A stretch of 64,000 nt of DNA from an uncultured Anaerococcus sp. Lineage in GTDB: Bacteria > Bacillota > Clostridia > Tissierellales > Peptoniphilaceae. Each line of letters begins with the position of its first letter. Within the stretch, counting starts at the first letter, position 1. Below are positions 2,942-41,561 of this stretch, one piece after another. The position numbers and the translations under genes are program-made. The notes below the pieces were generated by a model that had not been told where the DNA came from, did no database searches, and was given only the letters and a program-made list of their open reading frames with translations. The stretch covers positions 10,144 to 74,143 of the forward strand of contig NZ_CALTSY010000004.1 in assembly GCF_943908415.1 (NCBI RefSeq), read 5' to 3'.

Positions 2942-3964
2942 CTAAAATTGTTCCAAGAATCTTTTATCATTATCATAAAGTAGTCTGATATCATCTAGGC
3001 CATATTTTACCATGGCTATCCTGTCTACTCCTAGTCCAAAGGCAAATCCTGTGTATTTTTCACTATCTATGCCGCAAGCTTCTAATACATTTGGATGAAC
3101 CATACCTCCACCTAAAAGTTCCATGGACCAGCCAGTATTACCACATGCTGGACAGCCCTCTCCACGACAAACAGGGCAAGTTGCATCTACTTCTAAAGAT
3201 GGCTCAGTGAATGGAAAGTGGTGTGGCCTATATCTTAAATTAATATCATCTCCAAACATTTCTTTTATAAATGTCTCAAGAGTTGCCTTTAAATTCGCCA
3301 TAGAAACTCCCTCATCTACTACTAGACATTCTAATTGGTGAAACATTGGAGAGTGAGTTGCATCTACTTCATCATTTCTAAATACTCTACCGGCAGAAAC
3401 CATTTTTATAGGAAGCTTACCCTCTCTCATAACTCTAATCTGCATAGAAGAAGTATGAGGTCTTAGGATTGTATCATCTGTTATATAGAAAGTATCTGAT
3501 TTAGATCTAGCTGGATGGTCAGCTGGAGAATTTAGATCATCAAATACATTTTTGACAGTATCTATTTCTGGTCCTTCAACAACGTCAAAGCCCATATTTT
3601 GGAAGATAGCTTCAAGCTCTTCTAGAGTCTCGTTTATAAGAGCTAGGTGTCCACTTTCATATTTATCAAAGTGAGCTGTAACATCTATTTTTTCTTCTTT
3701 TATCTTTGCTTGTAAAATCTCTTTGTTTAGTTCTTCATTTTTATCAGATAGAACTTTTTCGATTTTTTTGCTAGTTTCGTTTATAAGCTTACCAGCCATA
3801 GGCTTTTCTTCGTTTGGTAATTTTGAGATATTTTTCTTAAGATCTGTAATTTTACCTTTTTTACCAAGATAAGTAATTCTAATTTTTTCTAAATCTTCAA
3901 GGCTACTAGCAACATTTATTTCATGTTCTGCCTTAGCCAGGATTTCTTTTAAGTTTTCTTCCAT
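2942..3964 (-). CDS. pheS: phenylalanine--tRNA ligase alpha subunit
   Basis: 340 aa with class II aaRS motifs, a C-terminal GLGVDRIAM and a PheS-type zinc knuckle CPVCRGEGCPAC. Confidence 0.95.
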   Translation of the reverse strand: MEENLKEILAKAEHEINVASSLEDLEKIRITYLGKKGKITDLKKNISKLPNEEKPMAGKLINETSKKIEKVLSDKNEELNKEILQAKIKEEKIDVTAHFDKYESGHLALINETLEELEAIFQNMGFDVVEGPEIDTVKNVFDDLNSPADHPARSKSDTFYITDDTILRPHTSSMQIRVMREGKLPIKMVSAGRVFRNDEVDATHSPMFHQLECLVVDEGVSMANLKATLETFIKEMFGDDINLRYRPHHFPFTEPSLEVDATCPVCRGEGCPACGNTGWSMELLGGGMVHPNVLEACGIDSEKYTGFAFGLGVDRIAMVKYGLDDIRLLYDNDKRFLEQF

Positions 3965-3967
3965 TTA

Positions 3968-4190
3968 CCTCTCCTAAATTTGTATAAAAAAATTCCGTCC
4001 TTATGAAAGGACAGAATCTATAAAGTCTGCGGTACCACCTTAATTGGTTATATAACCCACTTGAAAGCTTTAACGCAGCTTATACGTATCAACTACTTAT
4101 TTCATATCAAGCTTCATCGGTGAATATTAAGCTTAAAGTGAAAGGCTCTCATCATCCCTTTCTTGCTGTTATATTAAAGCTACTTTTGCC
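3968..4190 (-). promoter_or_regulatory. T-box riboswitch leader (Phe) with intrinsic terminator, upstream of pheST
   Basis: On the minus strand, AATTAAGGTGGTACCGCAG (plus 4027-4045) matches the T-box consensus AAUUAGGGUGGUACCGCG. A hairpin GTCCTTTCATAAGGAC followed by a U-run (plus 3985-4017) lies immediately upstream of the pheS RBS. Confidence 0.7.
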
Positions 4191-22859: not shown

Positions 22860-24134
22860 ATGAAAATTAAACTACCATACGGAAAAACCTACCAAGAAGT
22901 AGAAGTTGCTGATAACAGAGTAAAAGCAATACTCGAATCAAGCCTTGAAGAATATCAGCCAGAAGATGACCAGCTAACAATAGTTAAAAAATCAATGGAA
23001 AATCCAATAGGAACTCCCAAATTAAAAGAATTAGCTGTCGGAAAAGATAAAGTAGTAATTCTTATCTCAGACCACACTAGACCAGTGCCTAGCAAATACA
23101 TACTTCCTTTGATGTTAGAAGAAATAAGAGAGGGAAATCCTAATGCTGATATTACCCTTCTAGTTGCTACAGGATGCCATCGTGAAACTACTAAAGAAGA
23201 GTTAATAGGCAAGATTGGTGAAGATATATATAATAACGAAAAAATATATATACATGATTGTGATGATGAATCAATGCTCGTTAAATTAGATCAAAAGCTA
23301 CCTTCTGGTGGTGACATAGTAGTTAATAAATTAGCTGCAGAAGCTGATTTATTAGTAGCAGAAGGATTTATTGAGCCTCACTTCTTTGCCGGTTATTCAG
23401 GTGGTAGAAAAAGCGTATTTCCAGGATGCTGTAGCCGTAAAGCAGTAATGTATAACCATAATGCTGAGTTTATCGATAGTGAGTATTCTAGAACTGGAAA
23501 TCTTGAAAACAACCCAATACACAAAGATATGATAGCTGCTGCTAGGGCTCTAGATTTAGTTTATATTGTAAACGTAGTAATCAATTCTGATAAAGAAGTT
23601 ATCCACTCAGTAGCTGGGGATTTAGAGCAAGCTCACGAATCTGGAACAGAATGGCTAAAAGAAAGAGCCGGTGTAGAAAAACAACTTGCAGATATAGCAA
23701 TCACTTCTAATGGAGGGTATCCTCTAGACCAAAATATCTATCAAGCTGTAAAATCAATGACAGCTGCAGAAGCAGCAGTTAAAGAAGGCGGTGTTATAAT
23801 AGTAAGCGCAGAATCTAGCGATGGAACAGGTGGAGATGCTTTCTATAACGCCTTCGTAGATGAACCTGATACCCAAAAATTATATCAGTCTTTCTTAGAT
23901 ACTCCTAAAATAAAGACAATCCCTGACCAATGGGAATCACAAATCCTATGTAGGGTTTTACTAAAAACTAAGGCAGTAATATATATATCTGATGTAGAAG
24001 ATGAAATTGTAGAAACTTTCCATATGATTCCAGCAAAATCATTAGATGAAGCTATGAAGAAAGCTGATGAGCTTATGGGTAGCGATAGTAGTATAACAGT
24101 AATACCTAACGGAATATCTGTTTTTGTAAAGTAA
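22860..24134 (+). CDS. larA: nickel-dependent lactate racemase
   Basis: 424 aa in the LarA/DUF2088 family. The lar maturation genes are adjacent. Confidence 0.85.
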   Translation: MKIKLPYGKTYQEVEVADNRVKAILESSLEEYQPEDDQLTIVKKSMENPIGTPKLKELAVGKDKVVILISDHTRPVPSKYILPLMLEEIREGNPNADITLLVATGCHRETTKEELIGKIGEDIYNNEKIYIHDCDDESMLVKLDQKLPSGGDIVVNKLAAEADLLVAEGFIEPHFFAGYSGGRKSVFPGCCSRKAVMYNHNAEFIDSEYSRTGNLENNPIHKDMIAAARALDLVYIVNVVINSDKEVIHSVAGDLEQAHESGTEWLKERAGVEKQLADIAITSNGGYPLDQNIYQAVKSMTAAEAAVKEGGVIIVSAESSDGTGGDAFYNAFVDEPDTQKLYQSFLDTPKIKTIPDQWESQILCRVLLKTKAVIYISDVEDEIVETFHMIPAKSLDEAMKKADELMGSDSSITVIPNGISVFVK

Positions 24135-24147
24135 AATATTAAAATAG

Positions 24148-24195
24148 TAAAAATAGCTAGCAATAATTATATGATTATTTGCTAGCTATTTTTAT
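24148..24195. terminator. bidirectional terminator (long near-perfect palindrome) between larA and larC
   Basis: AAAATAGCTAGCAATAAT...ATTATTTGCTAGCTATTTT, a ~18-bp stem. Confidence 0.5.
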
Positions 24196-24196
24196 T

Positions 24197-24577
24197 CTAA
24201 TTATTTGATATATTTCTTTGATCGTATAATTTTTTTAGAAAATCAAAGGCGACTTTTAGGCCGATATCCTTATTGTTTGCAAGTTCTTTTGCCGATTCAT
24301 ATTCTGGATAAATATAATTTGTATCATTATGTCTTACAATCTTATATCTATAATCCTTATTTTCATATCTTATAGTTTCTATCTTGCGATCTAATATATC
24401 CCTTTCTATAGGAATTTTTCTGATACCTATACTAGTAGAATGTTTAAATATCAAATCTTCAATTTTCTTTTCATTTTCTAAATCGCAAATAACTGATAGC
24501 TTGAATGCTGGTCTATTTTTTTTCATAAAGATAGGAGTATAAAATACATCAAGGGCATAATTCATAACTTCATCCAT
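24197..24577 (-). CDS. larC: LarC C-terminal segment (larC2-like)
   Basis: 126 aa from the first ATG. The reading frame is open upstream to 24643 (…KKTLEILETNIDDSTGELLGFL-MDEV…) and matches the LarC C-terminal domain. Confidence 0.75.
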   Translation of the reverse strand: MDEVMNYALDVFYTPIFMKKNRPAFKLSVICDLENEKKIEDLIFKHSTSIGIRKIPIERDILDRKIETIRYENKDYRYKIVRHNDTNYIYPEYESAKELANNKDIGLKVAFDFLKKLYDQRNISNN

Positions 24578-24630
24578 TAAAAATCCTAAAAGCTCTCCTG
24601 TGCTATCATCAATGTTAGTTTCTAAAATTT

Positions 24631-25464
24631 CTAGTGTTTTTTTTTACTAGTTTCAATTTCCATTACCCTTAGTATATTAGTGTACTTATCAAAGTCTCTA
24701 TTACCTGCTCCAAGACCTACATTGTTTATCTTAAAGCTATCTATCTTATGTCCCTTATCAAAGTATCTTACTATAGCTGCGCCAGTTGGTGTAACATGCT
24801 CACCAGCTTCATCCAATAGTTTTATGTTGATATCAGAGCCTGCTAGTATGTTAATTACAGCAGGAACTGGTATTGGCATCTGCCCATGGGCACAATTTTG
24901 ATAACCATAACCTTCATTAAGATCAGAAAAATAAATATTTTCTACATCTAAGTCATCTATAAGCACAGATGTGCCTATAATATCAATTATAGAATCAATG
25001 GCCCCCACCTCATGAAAATGAACTTCTGATTTATCAATGCCGTGAGCCTTAGCTTCAGCATCTGCAATTATATCAAATATTCCTAGGGCATTATCCTTAG
25101 CCCTCTGAGATATATCAGCCTTATCTATTAATTCAGTAACTTCCTTTAAATGTCTATGGACATGACTATCATGATGATGTGAGTGTGTATGTCCTTTAGA
25201 ACTTCCCTTTTCATGATGGTGATAATGCTTACCTTCTTGCTCATGAGAATGATCATGTTCATGTTTTTCACTATCTAAAATTACATCAAAATTATAGGCG
25301 TCTATGCCATTTTTATTTTTTCTATTAAAAACTAATTCATATCCATCAATGCCTAAAGAATCAATGGCCTTAACCAATTTTTCTTTGCTAGCTCCTAAAT
25401 CGAGTAAGGCTGCAATTGTCATATCTCCTGCTATTCCCGAGTTCATTTCAAAATATAAGTCCAT
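24631..25464 (-). CDS. larC: nickel insertion protein LarC, N-terminal segment (larC1-like) with a His-rich Ni-binding stretch
   Basis: 277 aa LarC N-domain with a His-rich region (HEHDHSHEQEGKHYHHHEKGSSKGHTHSHHHDSHVHRH). It ends …ETSKKKH* immediately after an A9 run. Confidence 0.8.
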   Translation of the reverse strand: MDLYFEMNSGIAGDMTIAALLDLGASKEKLVKAIDSLGIDGYELVFNRKNKNGIDAYNFDVILDSEKHEHDHSHEQEGKHYHHHEKGSSKGHTHSHHHDSHVHRHLKEVTELIDKADISQRAKDNALGIFDIIADAEAKAHGIDKSEVHFHEVGAIDSIIDIIGTSVLIDDLDVENIYFSDLNEGYGYQNCAHGQMPIPVPAVINILAGSDINIKLLDEAGEHVTPTGAAIVRYFDKGHKIDSFKINNVGLGAGNRDFDKYTNILRVMEIETSKKKH

Positions 25465-26211
25465 CTATTTCTCCTCTATAAGTTTATTAATCTGACAAGC
25501 ATTATAGGCTGCACTGTAGCCATTATCTATATTTACAACATTTACTCCTTCAGCACAAGTATTTAACATAGTCAGTAAGGCTGATAGGCCGTTAAAGCTA
25601 GCTCCATATCCAACAGATGTTGGCACAGCAATAATTGGTTTATTTACCAAACCACCTATTACCGTTGGCAAAGCACCTTCCATACCTGCAATAGCTATTA
25701 TTACATTGGCTTTTGAGATTTCATCTATCTTTGATGTAAGCCTATGCAATCCAGACACTCCTACATCATAAAATTTACTAACATTTGCCCCAAAAAATTC
25801 TGCTGTTATCCTAGCTTCTTCTGCCACTTTTAGATCTGCAGTACCTCCAGTACAAATAGCAATGTTTCCTATTTTTTTCTCTTGTCCATAAACAAGAGAA
25901 ATAATCCTAGATGTCTTATCATAGTTAGCTTCTGGAACTAGCTCTCTTACTTTTTCAAACTGATTAAGACTTGCTCTAGTTCCTATAACAGATTCCTTGC
26001 GTTCACTAAAAGTTTTGAAGATTTCGGCTAGGGCAAAGTCTTCTTTGCCCTCACAAAATATTGTCTCTCCAAATCCTCTACGTTCTTTTCTTTGAAAGTC
26101 CAGCTTTGCAAAATCTAAATCTTTATAATTAAAGTCCTTTAGATAAGCTATGCCGTCATTTATAGATATTTCTTCATTTTTAATTTTTTCTAAAAATTCT
26201 TTATTATTCAT
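25465..26211 (-). CDS. larB: nickel-pincer cofactor biosynthesis protein LarB (PurE-like carboxylase/hydrolase)
   Basis: 248 aa. Its C-terminal half is PurE-like (AIAGMEGALPTVIGGL...PTSVGYG). Confidence 0.8.
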   Translation of the reverse strand: MNNKEFLEKIKNEEISINDGIAYLKDFNYKDLDFAKLDFQRKERRGFGETIFCEGKEDFALAEIFKTFSERKESVIGTRASLNQFEKVRELVPEANYDKTSRIISLVYGQEKKIGNIAICTGGTADLKVAEEARITAEFFGANVSKFYDVGVSGLHRLTSKIDEISKANVIIAIAGMEGALPTVIGGLVNKPIIAVPTSVGYGASFNGLSALLTMLNTCAEGVNVVNIDNGYSAAYNACQINKLIEEK

Positions 26212-26212
26212 C

Positions 26213-27073
26213 TTATAACCAAGGATTCACTTCTTTTTTTATATCATCATATAAAACTTCATCCATAGAACCTGACCTATATCCTTCTAGATCGATATTT
26301 ACATACTTAAATCCTAAATCTTTAAATTTTTTGACTATATCCTCTGAATGTTTGAAAAGCTCATCTAGTTTTTCTTTTTTAACTTCAATTCTTGTATTAT
26401 CTCCATAAACCCTTACTCTATTATCAGTAAACCCTAAACTCTCTAAGTAGTTTTCAGCTTCTTCTATCATATCTAGTTTATCAAGATCAATTCTAGTATT
26501 GTAAGGGAATCTAGTAGCCATGCATGGTTTAGAAGGCTTCTTATGGGTTTCTACACCAAGTTCTTTTGAATATAGACGAACTTCTTTTTTGCTTAATCCA
26601 GCCTCATATAAAGGAGATCTAGTGCCTAGATCCTTTAAAGCTTTAATACCAGGCCTGAATACCTTATAGTCGTCCATATTAGTTCCATCAACTACATATC
26701 CATATCCTAGTTCATCTTTTAAATTAAAGCAATTTTCAAATAGTCCAGATTTGCAGTAATAACATCTATACTCTACATTATTTAGTAATTTTTCGTTATC
26801 CATAATGCTGTTATTGGAAACATATAAATCTACATCCATTTCCGAAGCCAAGCGCTTACATTCTTCTAGCTCATCCTTAGGAGAAAATTCTGTCACAAAA
26901 GTTATAGCAACTAGGTCATCCCTATTTTCTCTAAGATCCGCTGCAAGCTTTAATATCAGAGTACTATCTACTCCACCAGAAAAGGCCAATACCATCTTAT
27001 CTTCTAGCATTTCCTTTATTATTTTATTTAATTTTTCTTTCTTTTGATCACTTATACTATCTATTTCTGTCAT
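26213..27073 (-). CDS. larE: ATP-dependent sacrificial sulfur transferase LarE
   Basis: 286 aa with PP-loop SGGVDST. Sits in the lar context. Confidence 0.8.
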   Translation of the reverse strand: MTEIDSISDQKKEKLNKIIKEMLEDKMVLAFSGGVDSTLILKLAADLRENRDDLVAITFVTEFSPKDELEECKRLASEMDVDLYVSNNSIMDNEKLLNNVEYRCYYCKSGLFENCFNLKDELGYGYVVDGTNMDDYKVFRPGIKALKDLGTRSPLYEAGLSKKEVRLYSKELGVETHKKPSKPCMATRFPYNTRIDLDKLDMIEEAENYLESLGFTDNRVRVYGDNTRIEVKKEKLDELFKHSEDIVKKFKDLGFKYVNIDLEGYRSGSMDEVLYDDIKKEVNPWL

Positions 27074-27302
27074 ATGAAACTCCTAACAAATTCACATATA
27101 AAAAGTCAACTTAATTTCTTTAAACACTATAATTTTAACATAGTTTTACAAAAAATCACAACCAAAACTATTCTAAAAAATAAAAATTACAATAAAAATT
27201 TTTTTCTCTTCTTATTTATATGTATCATAAATAAAATTACTTAAACAAAAAAATCTGAGCATACAGGTCATATGCTCAGACTTTAACATTTGTTATCAAA
27301 AA

Positions 27303-40528: not shown

Positions 40529-40602
40529 TGGAGGCGCCACCCAGATTTGAACTGGGGATAAAGGTGTTGCAGACCTCTGCCTTACCACTTGGCTATGGCG
40601 CC
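40529..40602 (-). tRNA. tRNA-Cys (GCA)
   Basis: 74-nt cloverleaf with anticodon loop CUGCAAC and an encoded CCA. The ORF-track translation QSVEQRT…VGGSIPP is the classic tRNA artefact. Confidence 0.9.
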
Positions 40603-40608
40603 AATATA

Positions 40609-40715
40609 AGCCTGTCCGGCTAATAGAGGACCCTCCATGGAATGGTCGTGTGTAACACGAAAGCCTGTTCGGCTAATGGAGTACCCACCACGGAATGGTT
40701 GTGCAAAGCACTATT
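40609..40715 (+). repeat. two tandem copies of a ~50-bp REP/BIME-like structured repeat (orientation A); a partial third copy lies at 40922-40946
   Basis: Core AAGCCYGYYCGGCTAATRGAGKACCCWCCAYGGAATGG followed by a variable short hairpin (CGTGTgtaACACG / GTGCaaaGCAC). Confidence 0.7.
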
Positions 40716-40974
40716 ACCCAGCCAGTAATGATTAAAAGCTATGTAATAATCGTATATAGTACAGTTAGTATAGACTATCATGAAATTATGTGCTTAGCAC
40801 GAAAATCCGTCTTTTGACGGCGAACACGAAATCAATGGATATTTGGCTTTCATGAATAGTCGTAATCTTATCTAGAGTATAACTCTAAACTTTAAAATAC
40901 TGTATTATGGCCTCAGGCAATAAAAAGCCCGCCCGGCTAATGGATTTAATAACCACTAACTGGCCAGGTAATTG

Positions 40975-41049
40975 TGGAGCGGATGACGAGATTCGAACTC
41001 GCGACCCTCGCCTTGGCAAGGCGATGCTCTACCACTGAGCCACATCCGC
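40975..41049 (-). tRNA. tRNA-Gly (GCC)
   Basis: 75 nt with anticodon loop UUGCCAA, a T-arm GGTTCGAATC and a CCA end. Confidence 0.9.
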
Positions 41050-41296
41050 ATATCATTTCAATACTTTTATAGTATACTACTTAATTTATTTTTTTGCAAA
41101 TATTTTTTATTAATTATGCGTTTATGATATAAATCAAATAGATATATCTTATATTAAACTAGACTTTTGTTATTTGTCCAAATACATTTTGCCGTATTGG
41201 CTGAGCTGTTTTTCCGTTCTACACGAGACTTGCCGGGTTGATATTATATTAGTCAGCTAGGATTGTTGATTCCTAACTCCTTATCATGATAGATCC

Positions 41297-41482
41297 TCTA
41301 ATAGCTGGACGGGCTTGTTGCTTCGCAACACCATTCCATGGAGGGTCCTTAGCTAGCCGGACGGGCTTGCTTTTTGCTTCGCACGACCACTCCGTGGCGG
41401 GTCCTCCTCTAGCCGGACAGGCTTGTTTTTTGCTTCGCAACACCATTCCATGGAGGGTCCTCCTCTAGCCGGACGGGCTTGA
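41297..41482 (-). repeat. three and a half tandem copies of the same repeat family (orientation B, the reverse complement of 40609-40715)
   Basis: Units at 41319, 41369 and 41427: TGCTTCGCAACACCATTCCATGGAGGGTCCTCCTCTAGCCGGACGGGCTTG. Copies abut with no spacers. Confidence 0.7.
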
Positions 41483-41485
41483 TTT

Positions 41486-41561
<76 letters not shown>

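What the first reader, a model, noticed from the sequence alone, without database searches (positions are those of the whole stretch)
24577..24650. larC split into two ORFs at a poly-A9 slippery run, consistent with -1 frameshifting or transcriptional slippage
The LarC N-part (24631-25464) ends ...GAA ACU AGU AAA AAA AAA CAC UAG. The LarC C-terminal frame is open from the A-run (AAA AAA ACA CUA GAA… = KKTLEILETNIDD…) and runs on into the 24197-24577 ORF. It lies in the -1 frame and is closed by UAG UAA just upstream of the A-run. A -1 slip on A_AAA_AAA would produce full-length LarC, and the 0 frame would produce a truncated LarC1. larC1/larC2 with frameshift expression has been reported for Lactobacillus plantarum, so recurrence here suggests the split is conserved and regulatory rather than a sequencing error. 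Homopolymer assembly error or pseudogenisation remain alternatives.
Basis: partly seen in the sequence, partly recalled or inferred. Interest (0 to 1): 0.65.

Follow-up and report, generated by a model that had tools for sequence, protein, structure and literature searches.

The report
Conserved poly-A recoding site in larC
The nickel-insertion gene larC of this Anaerococcus is split at a run of nine A's that is kept unchanged across the genus, so the cell makes a short and a full-length protein from one gene; the same device is already known for larC in other bacteria.

Summary
On the minus strand, larC1 (25464-24631, 277 aa) ends AGT AAA AAA AAA CAC TAG. The LarC2 domain is open only in the -1 frame, from inside the A9 run (24645-24637) to 24197.

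It is not an assembly error or a pseudogene:
- The identical 277-aa LarC1 is on record for 23 independent contigs. All five whose DNA I read have A9.
- All 12 Anaerococcus/Peptoniphilaceae genomes retrieved carry T+A9 at the same place, although synonymous sites are saturated.
- 118 of 120 related protein clusters end ...KKKx*.
- LarC2 is under purifying selection (dN/dS 0.06-0.17).
- No start codon precedes the essential ETNIDD motif.

L. plantarum larC1/larC2 (A10 run) is described as a programmed frameshift. The 'DUF111' (= LarC) frameshift cluster gave 34-39% shifted product in E. coli in 2013.

New here:
- Anaerococcus membership.
- About 15 further metagenomic lineages with the same device.
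- Rare A10 and A11 alleles.
- Arguments that RNA-polymerase slippage (+1 A), rather than ribosomal -1 frameshifting, may be the main route. This is not settled.

Verdict: a new member of a known kind, of modest interest.

The parts
26213..27073 (-). larE (286 aa), first gene of the larE-larB-larC operon
   Evidence: ORF list. Pfam PP-loop/NAD_synthase hits as for LarE. Same gene order in relatives.
25465..26211 (-). larB (248 aa)
   Evidence: Pfam AIRC, E 1e-17. Its stop abuts the larC1 start codon.
24631..25464 (-). larC1 ORF: product of standard decoding, 277 aa, the His-rich N-terminal LarC domain ending ...ETSKKKH*
   Evidence: PF01969 profile positions 1-237, E 7e-82. A 100% identical protein, P0001, is on record for 23 contigs.
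24637..24646 (-). Slippery site: T followed by A9 (A9 = 24645-24637). The in-phase heptamer A_AAA_AAA is 24643-24637. TAA (24646-24644) closes the -1 frame upstream.
   Evidence: Sequence. Invariant in 13 species. All-AAA Lys codons. Only A/T run of 9 or more in the window.
24631..24633 (-). 0-frame stop (TAG), one sense codon after the run
   Evidence: A stop (TAG or TAA) sits at this exact position in all 13 species, while the intervening codon varies: CAC, CTC, CAT, CTA, GCC, CTG, CAA.
24197..24643 (-). LarC2 coding frame (-1 relative to larC1), 148 codons plus stop. It is reachable only by recoding. The predicted full-length LarC is 422 aa.
   Evidence: PF01969 profile positions 243-372, E 2e-41. 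dN/dS 0.06-0.17. Matches PDB LarC chains 12bi and 6bwo. No ATG/GTG/TTG lies between the TAA and ETNIDD.
24139..24200 (-). Hairpin plus U-run after larC2: a likely bidirectional terminator shared with the convergent larA
   Evidence: RNA fold -21.2 kcal/mol, z -6.3.
22860..24134 (+). larA (424 aa), the nickel-pincer-dependent lactate racemase homologue, convergent with larC
   Evidence: Pfam Lar_N (E 4e-70) and LarA_C (E 1e-63).
27132..27161 (-). Candidate sigma-70-type promoter of the lar operon (TTGTGA, 18-nt spacer, TG TAAAAT). Low confidence.
   Evidence: Consensus scan only, and such matches are no more frequent than in shuffles. A terminator-like hairpin of the upstream gene lies at 27284-27250.

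Best explanation
The A9 run in the LarC interdomain linker is a conserved programmed recoding site.

Standard decoding gives LarC1 (277 aa, the His-rich nickel-binding domain). A fraction of expression events shifts into the -1 frame and gives full-length LarC (422 aa, ...ETSKKKTLEILETNIDD...), the form that also carries the CTP-binding LarC2 domain.

I commit to RNA-polymerase slippage as the main route. Some transcripts gain one extra A, so that A9 becomes A10 in the mRNA, and are then translated normally. A -1 ribosomal shift on A_AAA_AAA may contribute as well.

What is shown:
- the split;
- its conservation;
- selection on both halves;
- the absence of an independent LarC2 start;
- equivalence to the L. 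plantarum/DUF111 site.

What is inferred:
- that two proteins are made in Anaerococcus;
- the level at which the slip occurs;
- that the LarC1:LarC ratio is the selected trait.

I put 'a programmed recoding site of either kind' at about 0.93. The confidence figure below is for the transcriptional route specifically.
For: Evidence that this is a recoding site:
- All 12 Anaerococcus/Peptoniphilaceae genomes have larC2 in the -1 frame at an invariant T+A9.
- 118 of 120 90%-identity clusters end KKKx*.
- 23 contigs are on record for the identical ORF. The 5 whose DNA was read all have A9.
- dN/dS is 0.06-0.10 for C1 and 0.06-0.17 for C2, with dS above 1.
- L. plantarum-type larC has an A10 run in the same linker. 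Its -1 product matches crystallised LarC2 (PDB 6BWO) at all but the last of 143 aligned residues.
- The literature calls this a programmed frameshift.
- DUF111 cassettes with A10 and A9 gave 39% and 34% shifted product in E. coli.

Evidence for the transcriptional route:
- Nearly every recoding lineage seen has a run of 9 or more, longer than the heptamer a ribosome needs: Anaerococcus A9, L. plantarum A10, the two GeneTack cassettes (A10, A9), L151 A9, L154 A10.
- In the 101 metagenomic larC loci fetched with a pattern that required A9 or more, the run starts at codon position 1, 2 or 3.
- Baranov et al. 2005 treat a 9A run of conserved length among homologues as the signature of purposeful transcriptional slippage.
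- No conserved RNA structure or Shine-Dalgarno-like stimulator flanks the site.
- In E. coli, efficiency follows run length across unrelated genes: chelatase 11A 63%, 9A 40%, 7A 10%; DUF111 A9 34%.
- Bacterial slippage at 9 A/T mostly adds one nucleotide, then more in diminishing proportion. This fits the bias in frame arrangement: 84 in -1, 13 in frame, 4 in +1.
- An A11 allele, with larC2 in the +1 frame and intact, occurs in 9 contigs. A -1 ribosomal shift cannot rescue it; slippage can.
- Fused LarC linkers are acidic. Only 2 of 74 contain KKK, so the run is not there to encode lysines.
Against: - No RNA or protein data exist for this organism.
- The LarC literature describes the L. plantarum event as ribosomal frameshifting. 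I could not read the primary paper to see whether transcript heterogeneity was excluded.
- A_AAA_AAA is in phase here, so a tandem -1 tRNA-Lys slip is fully possible and gives the same protein.
- The strong bias to the -1 arrangement is also what pure -1 frameshifting predicts.
- One GC-richer lineage (L153, a single contig) has only A7, exactly in the heptamer phase.
- The A11 allele could be a recent null mutation.
- The metagenome survey required A9 or more by design, so it cannot by itself show that shorter runs are absent.
Confidence: 0.5

Rival explanations
1. Ribosomal -1 programmed frameshifting. Two tRNA-Lys on A_AAA_AAA re-pair one base back, and translation continues into LarC2. The mRNA stays A9.
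For: - The heptamer is in phase at 24643-24637.
- This is how the L. plantarum case is described.
- 84 of 101 loci with a long run are in the -1 arrangement.
- One lineage has only A7, in heptamer phase.
- A_AAA_AAA is a recognised shift motif.
Against: - No conserved downstream hairpin or upstream Shine-Dalgarno sequence. The window's own hairpin pairs no better than shuffles across species: 60.9% versus 60.2%.
- Runs are almost always two to three bases longer than the heptamer, and occur in all three codon phases.
- The A11 allele with an intact C2 is not rescuable by a -1 shift.
- Efficiency follows run length in E. coli reporters.
Confidence: 0.38
2. DNA-level phase variation. Replication slippage toggles the run between A9 (off, LarC1 only) and A10 (on, fused LarC) within populations, with no recoding of RNA or protein.
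For: - Run-length alleles exist. In Anaerococcus there is an A10 fused allele (L018) and an A11 allele (L027-30).
- Near-identical Lactobacillaceae plasmid operons carry A10 (split) or A11 (fused).
- 13 of 101 metagenomic loci are in frame.
Against: - A9 is the assembled state in 118 of 120 clusters and in all 12 genomes, across up to about 40% protein divergence.
- A switch that sits 'off' almost everywhere would not keep LarC2 at dN/dS around 0.1.
- Reporter cassettes with a fixed DNA sequence already give 34-39% shifted product.
Confidence: 0.05
3. Two separately translated proteins. LarC2 starts at its own initiation codon, as in species where larC is truly split.
For: True two-gene arrangements exist elsewhere:
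- Paenibacillus has a stop, a ribosome-binding site and an ATG.
- Niallia is similar.
- L152 has a TAATG stop/start overlap.

Gene callers also annotate a 126-aa ORF from the ATG at 24577.
Against: - In the window there is no ATG/GTG/TTG in the -1 frame between the TAA and the conserved ETNIDD motif.
- The ATG at 24577 lies after that motif and is not conserved. Relatives have I/V/L there.
- A separate start would not explain an invariant A9.
Confidence: 0.04
4. Assembly error or decaying pseudogene.
For: Homopolymers are error-prone. Decayed lar loci do exist: L150 has LarC1 only, with a larE remnant.
Against: - The same state is seen in complete genomes, draft genomes, MAGs and 23 contigs from different samples.
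- LarC2 has no stops in 12 species and a low dN/dS.
Confidence: 0.01

Closest known systems
Lactiplantibacillus plantarum larC1/larC2 (LarC cyclometallase of nickel-pincer cofactor synthesis)
   Same: - Same protein family and the same lar gene set.
- The break is in the same LarC1-LarC2 linker.
- larC2 is in the -1 frame.
- A long A-run, with a 0-frame stop one codon after it: GAA AAA AAA AAC TAA.
- Described as a stop bypassed by programmed ribosomal frameshifting.
   Different: - A10 starting at codon position 2, against A9 starting at position 1.
- The linker after the run is about 13 residues longer.
- Only about 37-39% identical, and from a different class (Bacilli, against Anaerococcus in the Peptoniphilaceae).
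- An A11 fused allele is common on related plasmids.
GeneTack 'DUF111' programmed-frameshift cluster (Antonov et al. 2013, PMC3711429)
   Same: - DUF111 is the older label for the LarC family that Pfam now lists as PF01969 (my knowledge of Pfam). Both cassette sequences read in the -1 frame into the conserved LarC2 N[IV]DD motif.
- A -1 transition at A9/A10, annotated as two hypothetical genes, with fused homologues elsewhere.
- 34-39% shifted product in E. coli.
   Different: - The tested cassettes are from other, unnamed species, with different flanks and phases (GAA AAA AAA AAG...; GGA AAA AAA AAC TAA).
- Anaerococcus does not occur in the supplementary text held for that paper.
- That paper did not separate transcriptional from translational shifting for this cluster.
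Thermus thermophilus dnaX and IS-element A9 transcriptional slippage
   Same: A run of nine A/T of conserved length gives a mixed mRNA population, and two protein products from one gene.
   Different: In dnaX the slipped product is the shorter protein. Here the slipped product is the longer one. Slippage is demonstrated there and only inferred here.
E. coli dnaX / IS911-type -1 ribosomal frameshifting (A_AAA_AAG)
   Same: An in-phase lysine heptamer, and two products in a set ratio.
   Different: Those sites rely on an upstream Shine-Dalgarno sequence and a downstream stem-loop. Neither is conserved here. The run here is longer than the heptamer.
Magnesium-chelatase poly-A frameshift cluster (GeneTack)
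   Same: A housekeeping, metal-related gene split at a poly-A run, with fused homologues elsewhere. Efficiency scales with run length.
   Different: An unrelated protein family. Strong nearby structure potential has been noted for some members.
True two-gene larC (Paenibacillus, Niallia, metagenomic L152)
   Same: LarC1 and LarC2 are encoded as separate reading frames at the same linker position.
   Different: LarC2 there has its own start (ribosome-binding site plus ATG, or a TAATG overlap) and there is no A-run. The two domains are never joined.

Membership tests
LarC (PF01969, nickel-pincer cofactor nickel insertase) | N-terminal LarC1 domain with a His-rich region | tested here: met
   PF01969 positions 1-237, E 7e-82. 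About 20 His lie between residues 67 and 104. Aligns to M. thermoacetica LarC, PDB 12bi.
LarC (PF01969, nickel-pincer cofactor nickel insertase) | C-terminal LarC2 (CTP-binding) domain | tested here: met
   The -1 frame matches PF01969 positions 243-372 (E 2e-41), and PDB 6bwo and 12bi.
LarC (PF01969, nickel-pincer cofactor nickel insertase) | Genomic association with larB, larE and a larA homologue | tested here: met
   larE-larB-larC1-larC2 on the minus strand, with a convergent larA.
LarC (PF01969, nickel-pincer cofactor nickel insertase) | CTP-dependent nickel insertion activity | not testable with these tools
   Needs biochemistry.
LarC/DUF111 poly-A recoding site (L. plantarum larC1/larC2; GeneTack cluster 782478235) | Frame transition of -1 located in the LarC1-LarC2 linker | tested here: met
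   The junction aligns to the flexible-linker region of M. thermoacetica LarC.
LarC/DUF111 poly-A recoding site (L. plantarum larC1/larC2; GeneTack cluster 782478235) | Homopolymeric A run (A9-A10) at the transition, with a nearby 0-frame stop | tested here: met
   A9, then CAC TAG. Compare the L. plantarum-type plasmid (A10, then AAC TAA) and the GeneTack cassettes.
LarC/DUF111 poly-A recoding site (L. plantarum larC1/larC2; GeneTack cluster 782478235) | Site and downstream frame conserved among homologues | tested here: met
   12 of 12 genomes, and 118 of 120 clusters. dN/dS of C2 is 0.06-0.17.
LarC/DUF111 poly-A recoding site (L. plantarum larC1/larC2; GeneTack cluster 782478235) | Both LarC1 and full-length LarC are actually produced | not testable with these tools
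   Reported for other members. No expression data for Anaerococcus.
Canonical bacterial -1 programmed ribosomal frameshift | In-phase X_XXY_YYZ heptamer | tested here: met
   A_AAA_AAA at 24643-24637, in the larC1 frame.
Canonical bacterial -1 programmed ribosomal frameshift | Conserved stimulator: a downstream stem-loop/pseudoknot or an upstream Shine-Dalgarno-like sequence (usual for high efficiency, not obligatory) | tested here: not met
   - The RNAalifold consensus is -0.61 kcal/mol.
- The window's hairpin is not conserved.
- The upstream GGAG/GGAA comes from Met-Glu codons and is lost in L010 and L012.
Programmed transcriptional slippage (realignment) | A/T run about as long as the RNA-DNA hybrid (9 or more), with length conserved among homologues | tested here: met
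   A9 is invariant in 13 species. This is the criterion of Baranov et al. 2005.
Programmed transcriptional slippage (realignment) | Works independently of the codon phase of the run | tested here: inconclusive
   Across lineages the run starts at codon position 1, 2 or 3. However, any run of 9 or more also contains an in-phase heptamer.
Programmed transcriptional slippage (realignment) | Heterogeneous mRNA population (A9, A10, ...) | not testable with these tools
   Needs cDNA or direct RNA sequencing.
Phase-variable contingency locus | Run length polymorphic within species, with frequent on/off alleles | tested here: not met
   Variants are rare in Anaerococcus: 2 of 120 clusters. The Lactobacillaceae plasmids are more mixed.

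The most novel reading that the evidence does not exclude
The larC split is not a ribosomal frameshift, as the LarC literature states. It is programmed transcriptional slippage that recurs across many Firmicute lineages.

The out-of-frame A9/A10 state is actively kept, against frequent run-length mutation, because it fixes a LarC1:LarC ratio. Free His-rich LarC1 would act as a separate nickel-handling subunit.

The rare A10 and A11 alleles simply retune that ratio rather than switching the gene on or off.
Probability: 0.4. Interest if true: 0.45.

Novelty: new member of a known kind. Interest (0 to 1): 0.3.

Why it matters
**Annotation.** Pipelines call these loci two 'LarC family' proteins, or a 126-aa fragment. 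The real active product is a 422-aa fusion. The same applies to many uncultured gut, skin and fermenter bacteria.

**Biology.** LarC makes the nickel-pincer cofactor of lactate racemase. The interdomain linker, where the run sits, is functionally sensitive. The out-of-frame state is strongly maintained, which suggests that free LarC1 is useful in its own right and that the LarC1:LarC ratio matters.

**Recoding.** The site is a clean natural test case for separating transcriptional from translational slippage. It offers many lineages, three run-length alleles and no auxiliary signals.

None of this overturns current understanding.

Tried and rejected
**Stimulatory RNA structure.**
- The RNAalifold consensus over 13 junctions is essentially empty.
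- The window's own downstream hairpin (-11.6 kcal/mol, z -3.1) is not kept in relatives.
- Hairpins downstream of the run in three other lineages are unremarkable or untestable.

**Upstream Shine-Dalgarno sequence.** The GGAG/GGAA about 13 nt upstream is a by-product of Met-Glu codons and is not conserved.

**Internal start for LarC2.** None lies before ETNIDD. The ATG at 24577 is not conserved.

**Rfam scan of the window.** Only three tRNAs, and nothing near the lar genes.

**Primary LarC papers.** Desguin 2014 and 2018, Turmo 2022 and several reviews are not held in the library. I therefore could not check what experiments support 'ribosomal' in L. plantarum.

**Conserved T before the run, and 'TA' of the 0-frame stop.** Both third-position bases occur at about 50% background in these genes. 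With about five independent lineages, this is only suggestive.

**'Runs are always 9 or more'.** One counter-example exists, with A7 (L153, a single contig). The claim is therefore 'nearly always'.

**The chromosomal L. plantarum locus.** Its LarC2 matches the crystallised protein at all but the last of 143 aligned residues.
Full report
**1. The observation**

On the minus strand, the ORF 25464..24631 (277 aa) ends ...GAA ACT AGT AAA AAA AAA CAC TAG. The A9 run occupies 24645-24637. The -1 frame reads TAG TAA up to and into the start of the run. It is then open for 148 codons, to the stop at 24199-24197, beginning KKTLEILETNIDD.

Pfam PF01969 (Ni_insertion, the LarC family) matches profile positions 1-237 in the first ORF (E 7e-82) and positions 243-372 in the -1 frame (E 2e-41). 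One gene is therefore broken in its interdomain linker.

The neighbours are larB and larE upstream on the same strand, and a convergent larA. A strong hairpin lies between larC2 and larA.

The only slip is the predicted junction peptide. A -1 shift, or one extra A, gives ...ETSKKKTLEIL... with three lysines, not four.

**2. Not chance, error or decay**

- The run is the only A/T homopolymer of 9 or more in the 64-kb window. A first-order model expects about 9.5 such 9-mers.
- A scan of one genome per species returned 12 Anaerococcus/Peptoniphilaceae loci, 55-79% identical in protein. In every one, LarC1 and LarC2 lie in frames that differ by -1. Two distant fused homologues are in a single frame.
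- All 12 loci have T followed by exactly nine A's at the same place, then one sense codon, then TAG or TAA.
- In a gapless alignment, T+A9 is a block of ten invariant columns amid variable third positions. Pairwise dS exceeds 1.
- Fifteen alignment columns are lysine in all 12 species compared (L012 is truncated and was left out). The three in the run are AAA in every species. Eleven of the other twelve contain AAG, and AAG is 26% of lysine codons overall.
- dN/dS is 0.06-0.10 for LarC1 and 0.06-0.17 for LarC2, so LarC2 is translated.
- The window's exact 277-aa LarC1 is on record for 23 contigs from different samples. The five places whose DNA I read all show A9 and the same two ORFs.
- Of the 120 closest 90%-identity clusters, 118 end ...KKK plus one residue.
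- There is no ATG, GTG or TTG in the -1 frame between the TAA and the conserved ETNIDD motif. The ATG at 24577 that gene callers use lies beyond that motif and is not conserved.

**3. What is already known**

A 2026 structural paper states that L. plantarum LarC1 (residues 1-271) and LarC2 (residues 272-412) are encoded by distinct reading frames. [quoted passage not shown] The same paper reports that the flexible 13-residue linker of M. thermoacetica LarC is functionally important.

Earlier, Antonov et al. 2013 listed 'DUF111' as one of four new families with programmed frameshifts. DUF111 is the older label for this family; I did not check that mapping here, but both of their cassette sequences read in the -1 frame into the LarC2 N[IV]DD motif. 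[quoted passage not shown]

I retrieved an L. plantarum-type lar operon from plasmids. Its junction is TTC GAA AAA AAA AAC TAA: an A10 run, larC2 in the -1 frame, and a stop one codon after the run. Its -1 product matches the crystallised LarC2 (PDB 6BWO) at all but the last of 143 aligned residues.

The window's junction aligns to the same linker region of M. thermoacetica LarC.

The Anaerococcus site is therefore another member of a described recoding family.

**4. How widespread**

I scanned metagenomes for A9 or more placed 8-30 nt before codons for ETNIDD.

- 101 of the loci are confirmed larC. A crude clustering gave 22 groups, which I read as about 15 distinct junction contexts.
- 84 loci are in the -1 arrangement, 13 are in frame, and 4 are in the +1 arrangement.
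- Runs are A9 to A12, and they start at codon position 1, 2 or 3.
- One human-gut clade alone (ATT A10 CG AAA TTA TAG) accounts for 46 loci.

Among the 150 best 50%-identity representatives, 33 are of LarC1 length. Six of these end in lysine-run tails such as ...KKN*. Two that I looked up are A9 and A10 sites in the -1 arrangement.

Other arrangements also exist:
- true two-gene splits with a ribosome-binding site and ATG (Paenibacillus, Niallia), or with a TAATG overlap (L152);
- a decayed locus (L150);
- one GC-richer contig with only A7, in the heptamer phase.

Fused LarC linkers are acidic, and only 2 of 74 contain KKK. The lysines are therefore a by-product of the A-run, not a protein requirement.

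**5. Run-length alleles**

In Anaerococcus, one assembly has A10, giving a 408-aa fused LarC with the junction ...ETGKKKTLELLETNIDD. Another lineage, on record for 9 contigs from short-read assemblies, has A11, with an intact LarC2 in the +1 frame.

On Lactobacillaceae plasmids, the same operon occurs with A10 (split; six records) and with A11 (fused; seven records).

Homopolymers mutate often. Yet A9 is retained in 118 of 120 Anaerococcus clusters, which argues that the out-of-frame state is itself favoured there.

**6. Mechanism**

Both routes give the same protein.

For ribosomal -1 frameshifting:
- A_AAA_AAA is in phase.
- The literature uses this term.
- The -1 arrangement dominates.
- One A7 lineage exists.

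For transcriptional slippage:
- Runs are nearly always 9-10, which is two to three bases longer than the heptamer. They occur in any codon phase.
- A 9A run of conserved length among homologues is the published signature of purposeful slippage.
- No conserved stimulatory structure or Shine-Dalgarno sequence flanks the site.
- Efficiency in E. coli reporters follows run length across unrelated genes: 11A 63%, 9A 40%, 7A 10%; DUF111 A9 34%.
- Bacterial slippage on nine A/T mainly adds one nucleotide, then more in diminishing proportion. This explains both the -1 bias and how an A11 allele could still yield some full-length protein.

I favour slippage at about 0.5 and ribosomal frameshifting at about 0.38. 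A mixture of the two is quite possible. Sequence data alone cannot settle this.

**7. Verdict**

This is a new member of a known kind: the LarC/DUF111 poly-A recoding family.

It is useful for annotation, and it is a good natural system for separating the two slippage mechanisms. It would not surprise a specialist.

Noticed in passing
window 24516-24523 (minus strand): There is a second long A-run (A8) inside larC2: ATG AAA AAA AAT, encoding the conserved FMKKNRP motif. The same A8 is present in relatives L018 and L027-L030. It sits just under the length at which A/T runs are depleted in this window.
   Followed up: partly
L018:3784-3793; L027:2356-2366 (also L028-L030): Rare run-length alleles occur in Anaerococcus. 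A10 gives a 408-aa in-frame LarC in one assembly. A11 puts an intact LarC2 in the +1 frame and is on record for 9 short-read contigs.
   Followed up: yes
L015:3770-3779 versus L025:1070-1080: Near-identical lar operons on Lactobacillaceae plasmids differ only in run length. A10 (split larC1/larC2) occurs in six records, and A11 (single larC CDS) in seven.
   Followed up: partly
L031 and 45 similar metagenomic loci (e.g. L042, L048, L078): A large, mostly human-gut clade of unknown organism has the junction ATT A10 CG AAA TTA TAG. In the 46 loci of this clade, 34 are A10 in the -1 arrangement and 5 are A11 fused; most of the remaining 7 keep the -1 arrangement with A9 or A11. I did not identify the organism.
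   Followed up: no
junctions in L031-L149 and window 24646: The base just 5' of the A-run is T in about 12 of 15 distinct junction contexts. This holds whether T is a third codon position (NNT AAA...) or the middle of GTA. L. plantarum and the two published cassettes have G instead. Possibly compositional; unexplained.
   Followed up: partly
L016:3480-3530; L017 about 3900-4000; L152:1850-1865: Some bacteria encode LarC1 and LarC2 as genuinely separate genes, either with a ribosome-binding site plus ATG or with a TAATG stop/start overlap. In those bacteria the two domains are never covalently joined, which is notable given the reported importance of the linker.
   Followed up: partly
L153:1640-1660: A GC-richer larC has only A7 (TCA AAA AAA GCG TAA), in the -1 arrangement and exactly in heptamer phase. 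It is a single contig, and the small downstream hairpin folds no better than shuffles. It is the one exception to 'runs of 9 or more'.
   Followed up: partly
L150:2034-2250: A LarC1-only locus. No LarC2 follows. Instead there is a stop-containing remnant that reads like a LarE C-terminus, next to CbiQ and ABC-transporter genes and larB.
   Followed up: no
whole window: A/T homopolymers of 9 or more are about tenfold depleted (1 observed against about 9.5 expected 9-mers), and those of 8 or more about threefold. This is consistent with selection against slippage-prone runs in this AT-rich genome (32% GC).
   Followed up: partly
L018:4224-7117 and L027:2800-3888: In some Anaerococcus relatives, larC is followed by genes for a periplasmic binding protein (L018, L027) and, in L018, FecCD and ABC-ATPase components, possibly for metal uptake. 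In the window it is followed by a convergent larA instead.
   Followed up: no
window 40532-41561 (minus strand): Three tRNA genes are the only Rfam matches in the window. No riboswitch or other known RNA lies near the lar operon.
   Followed up: no
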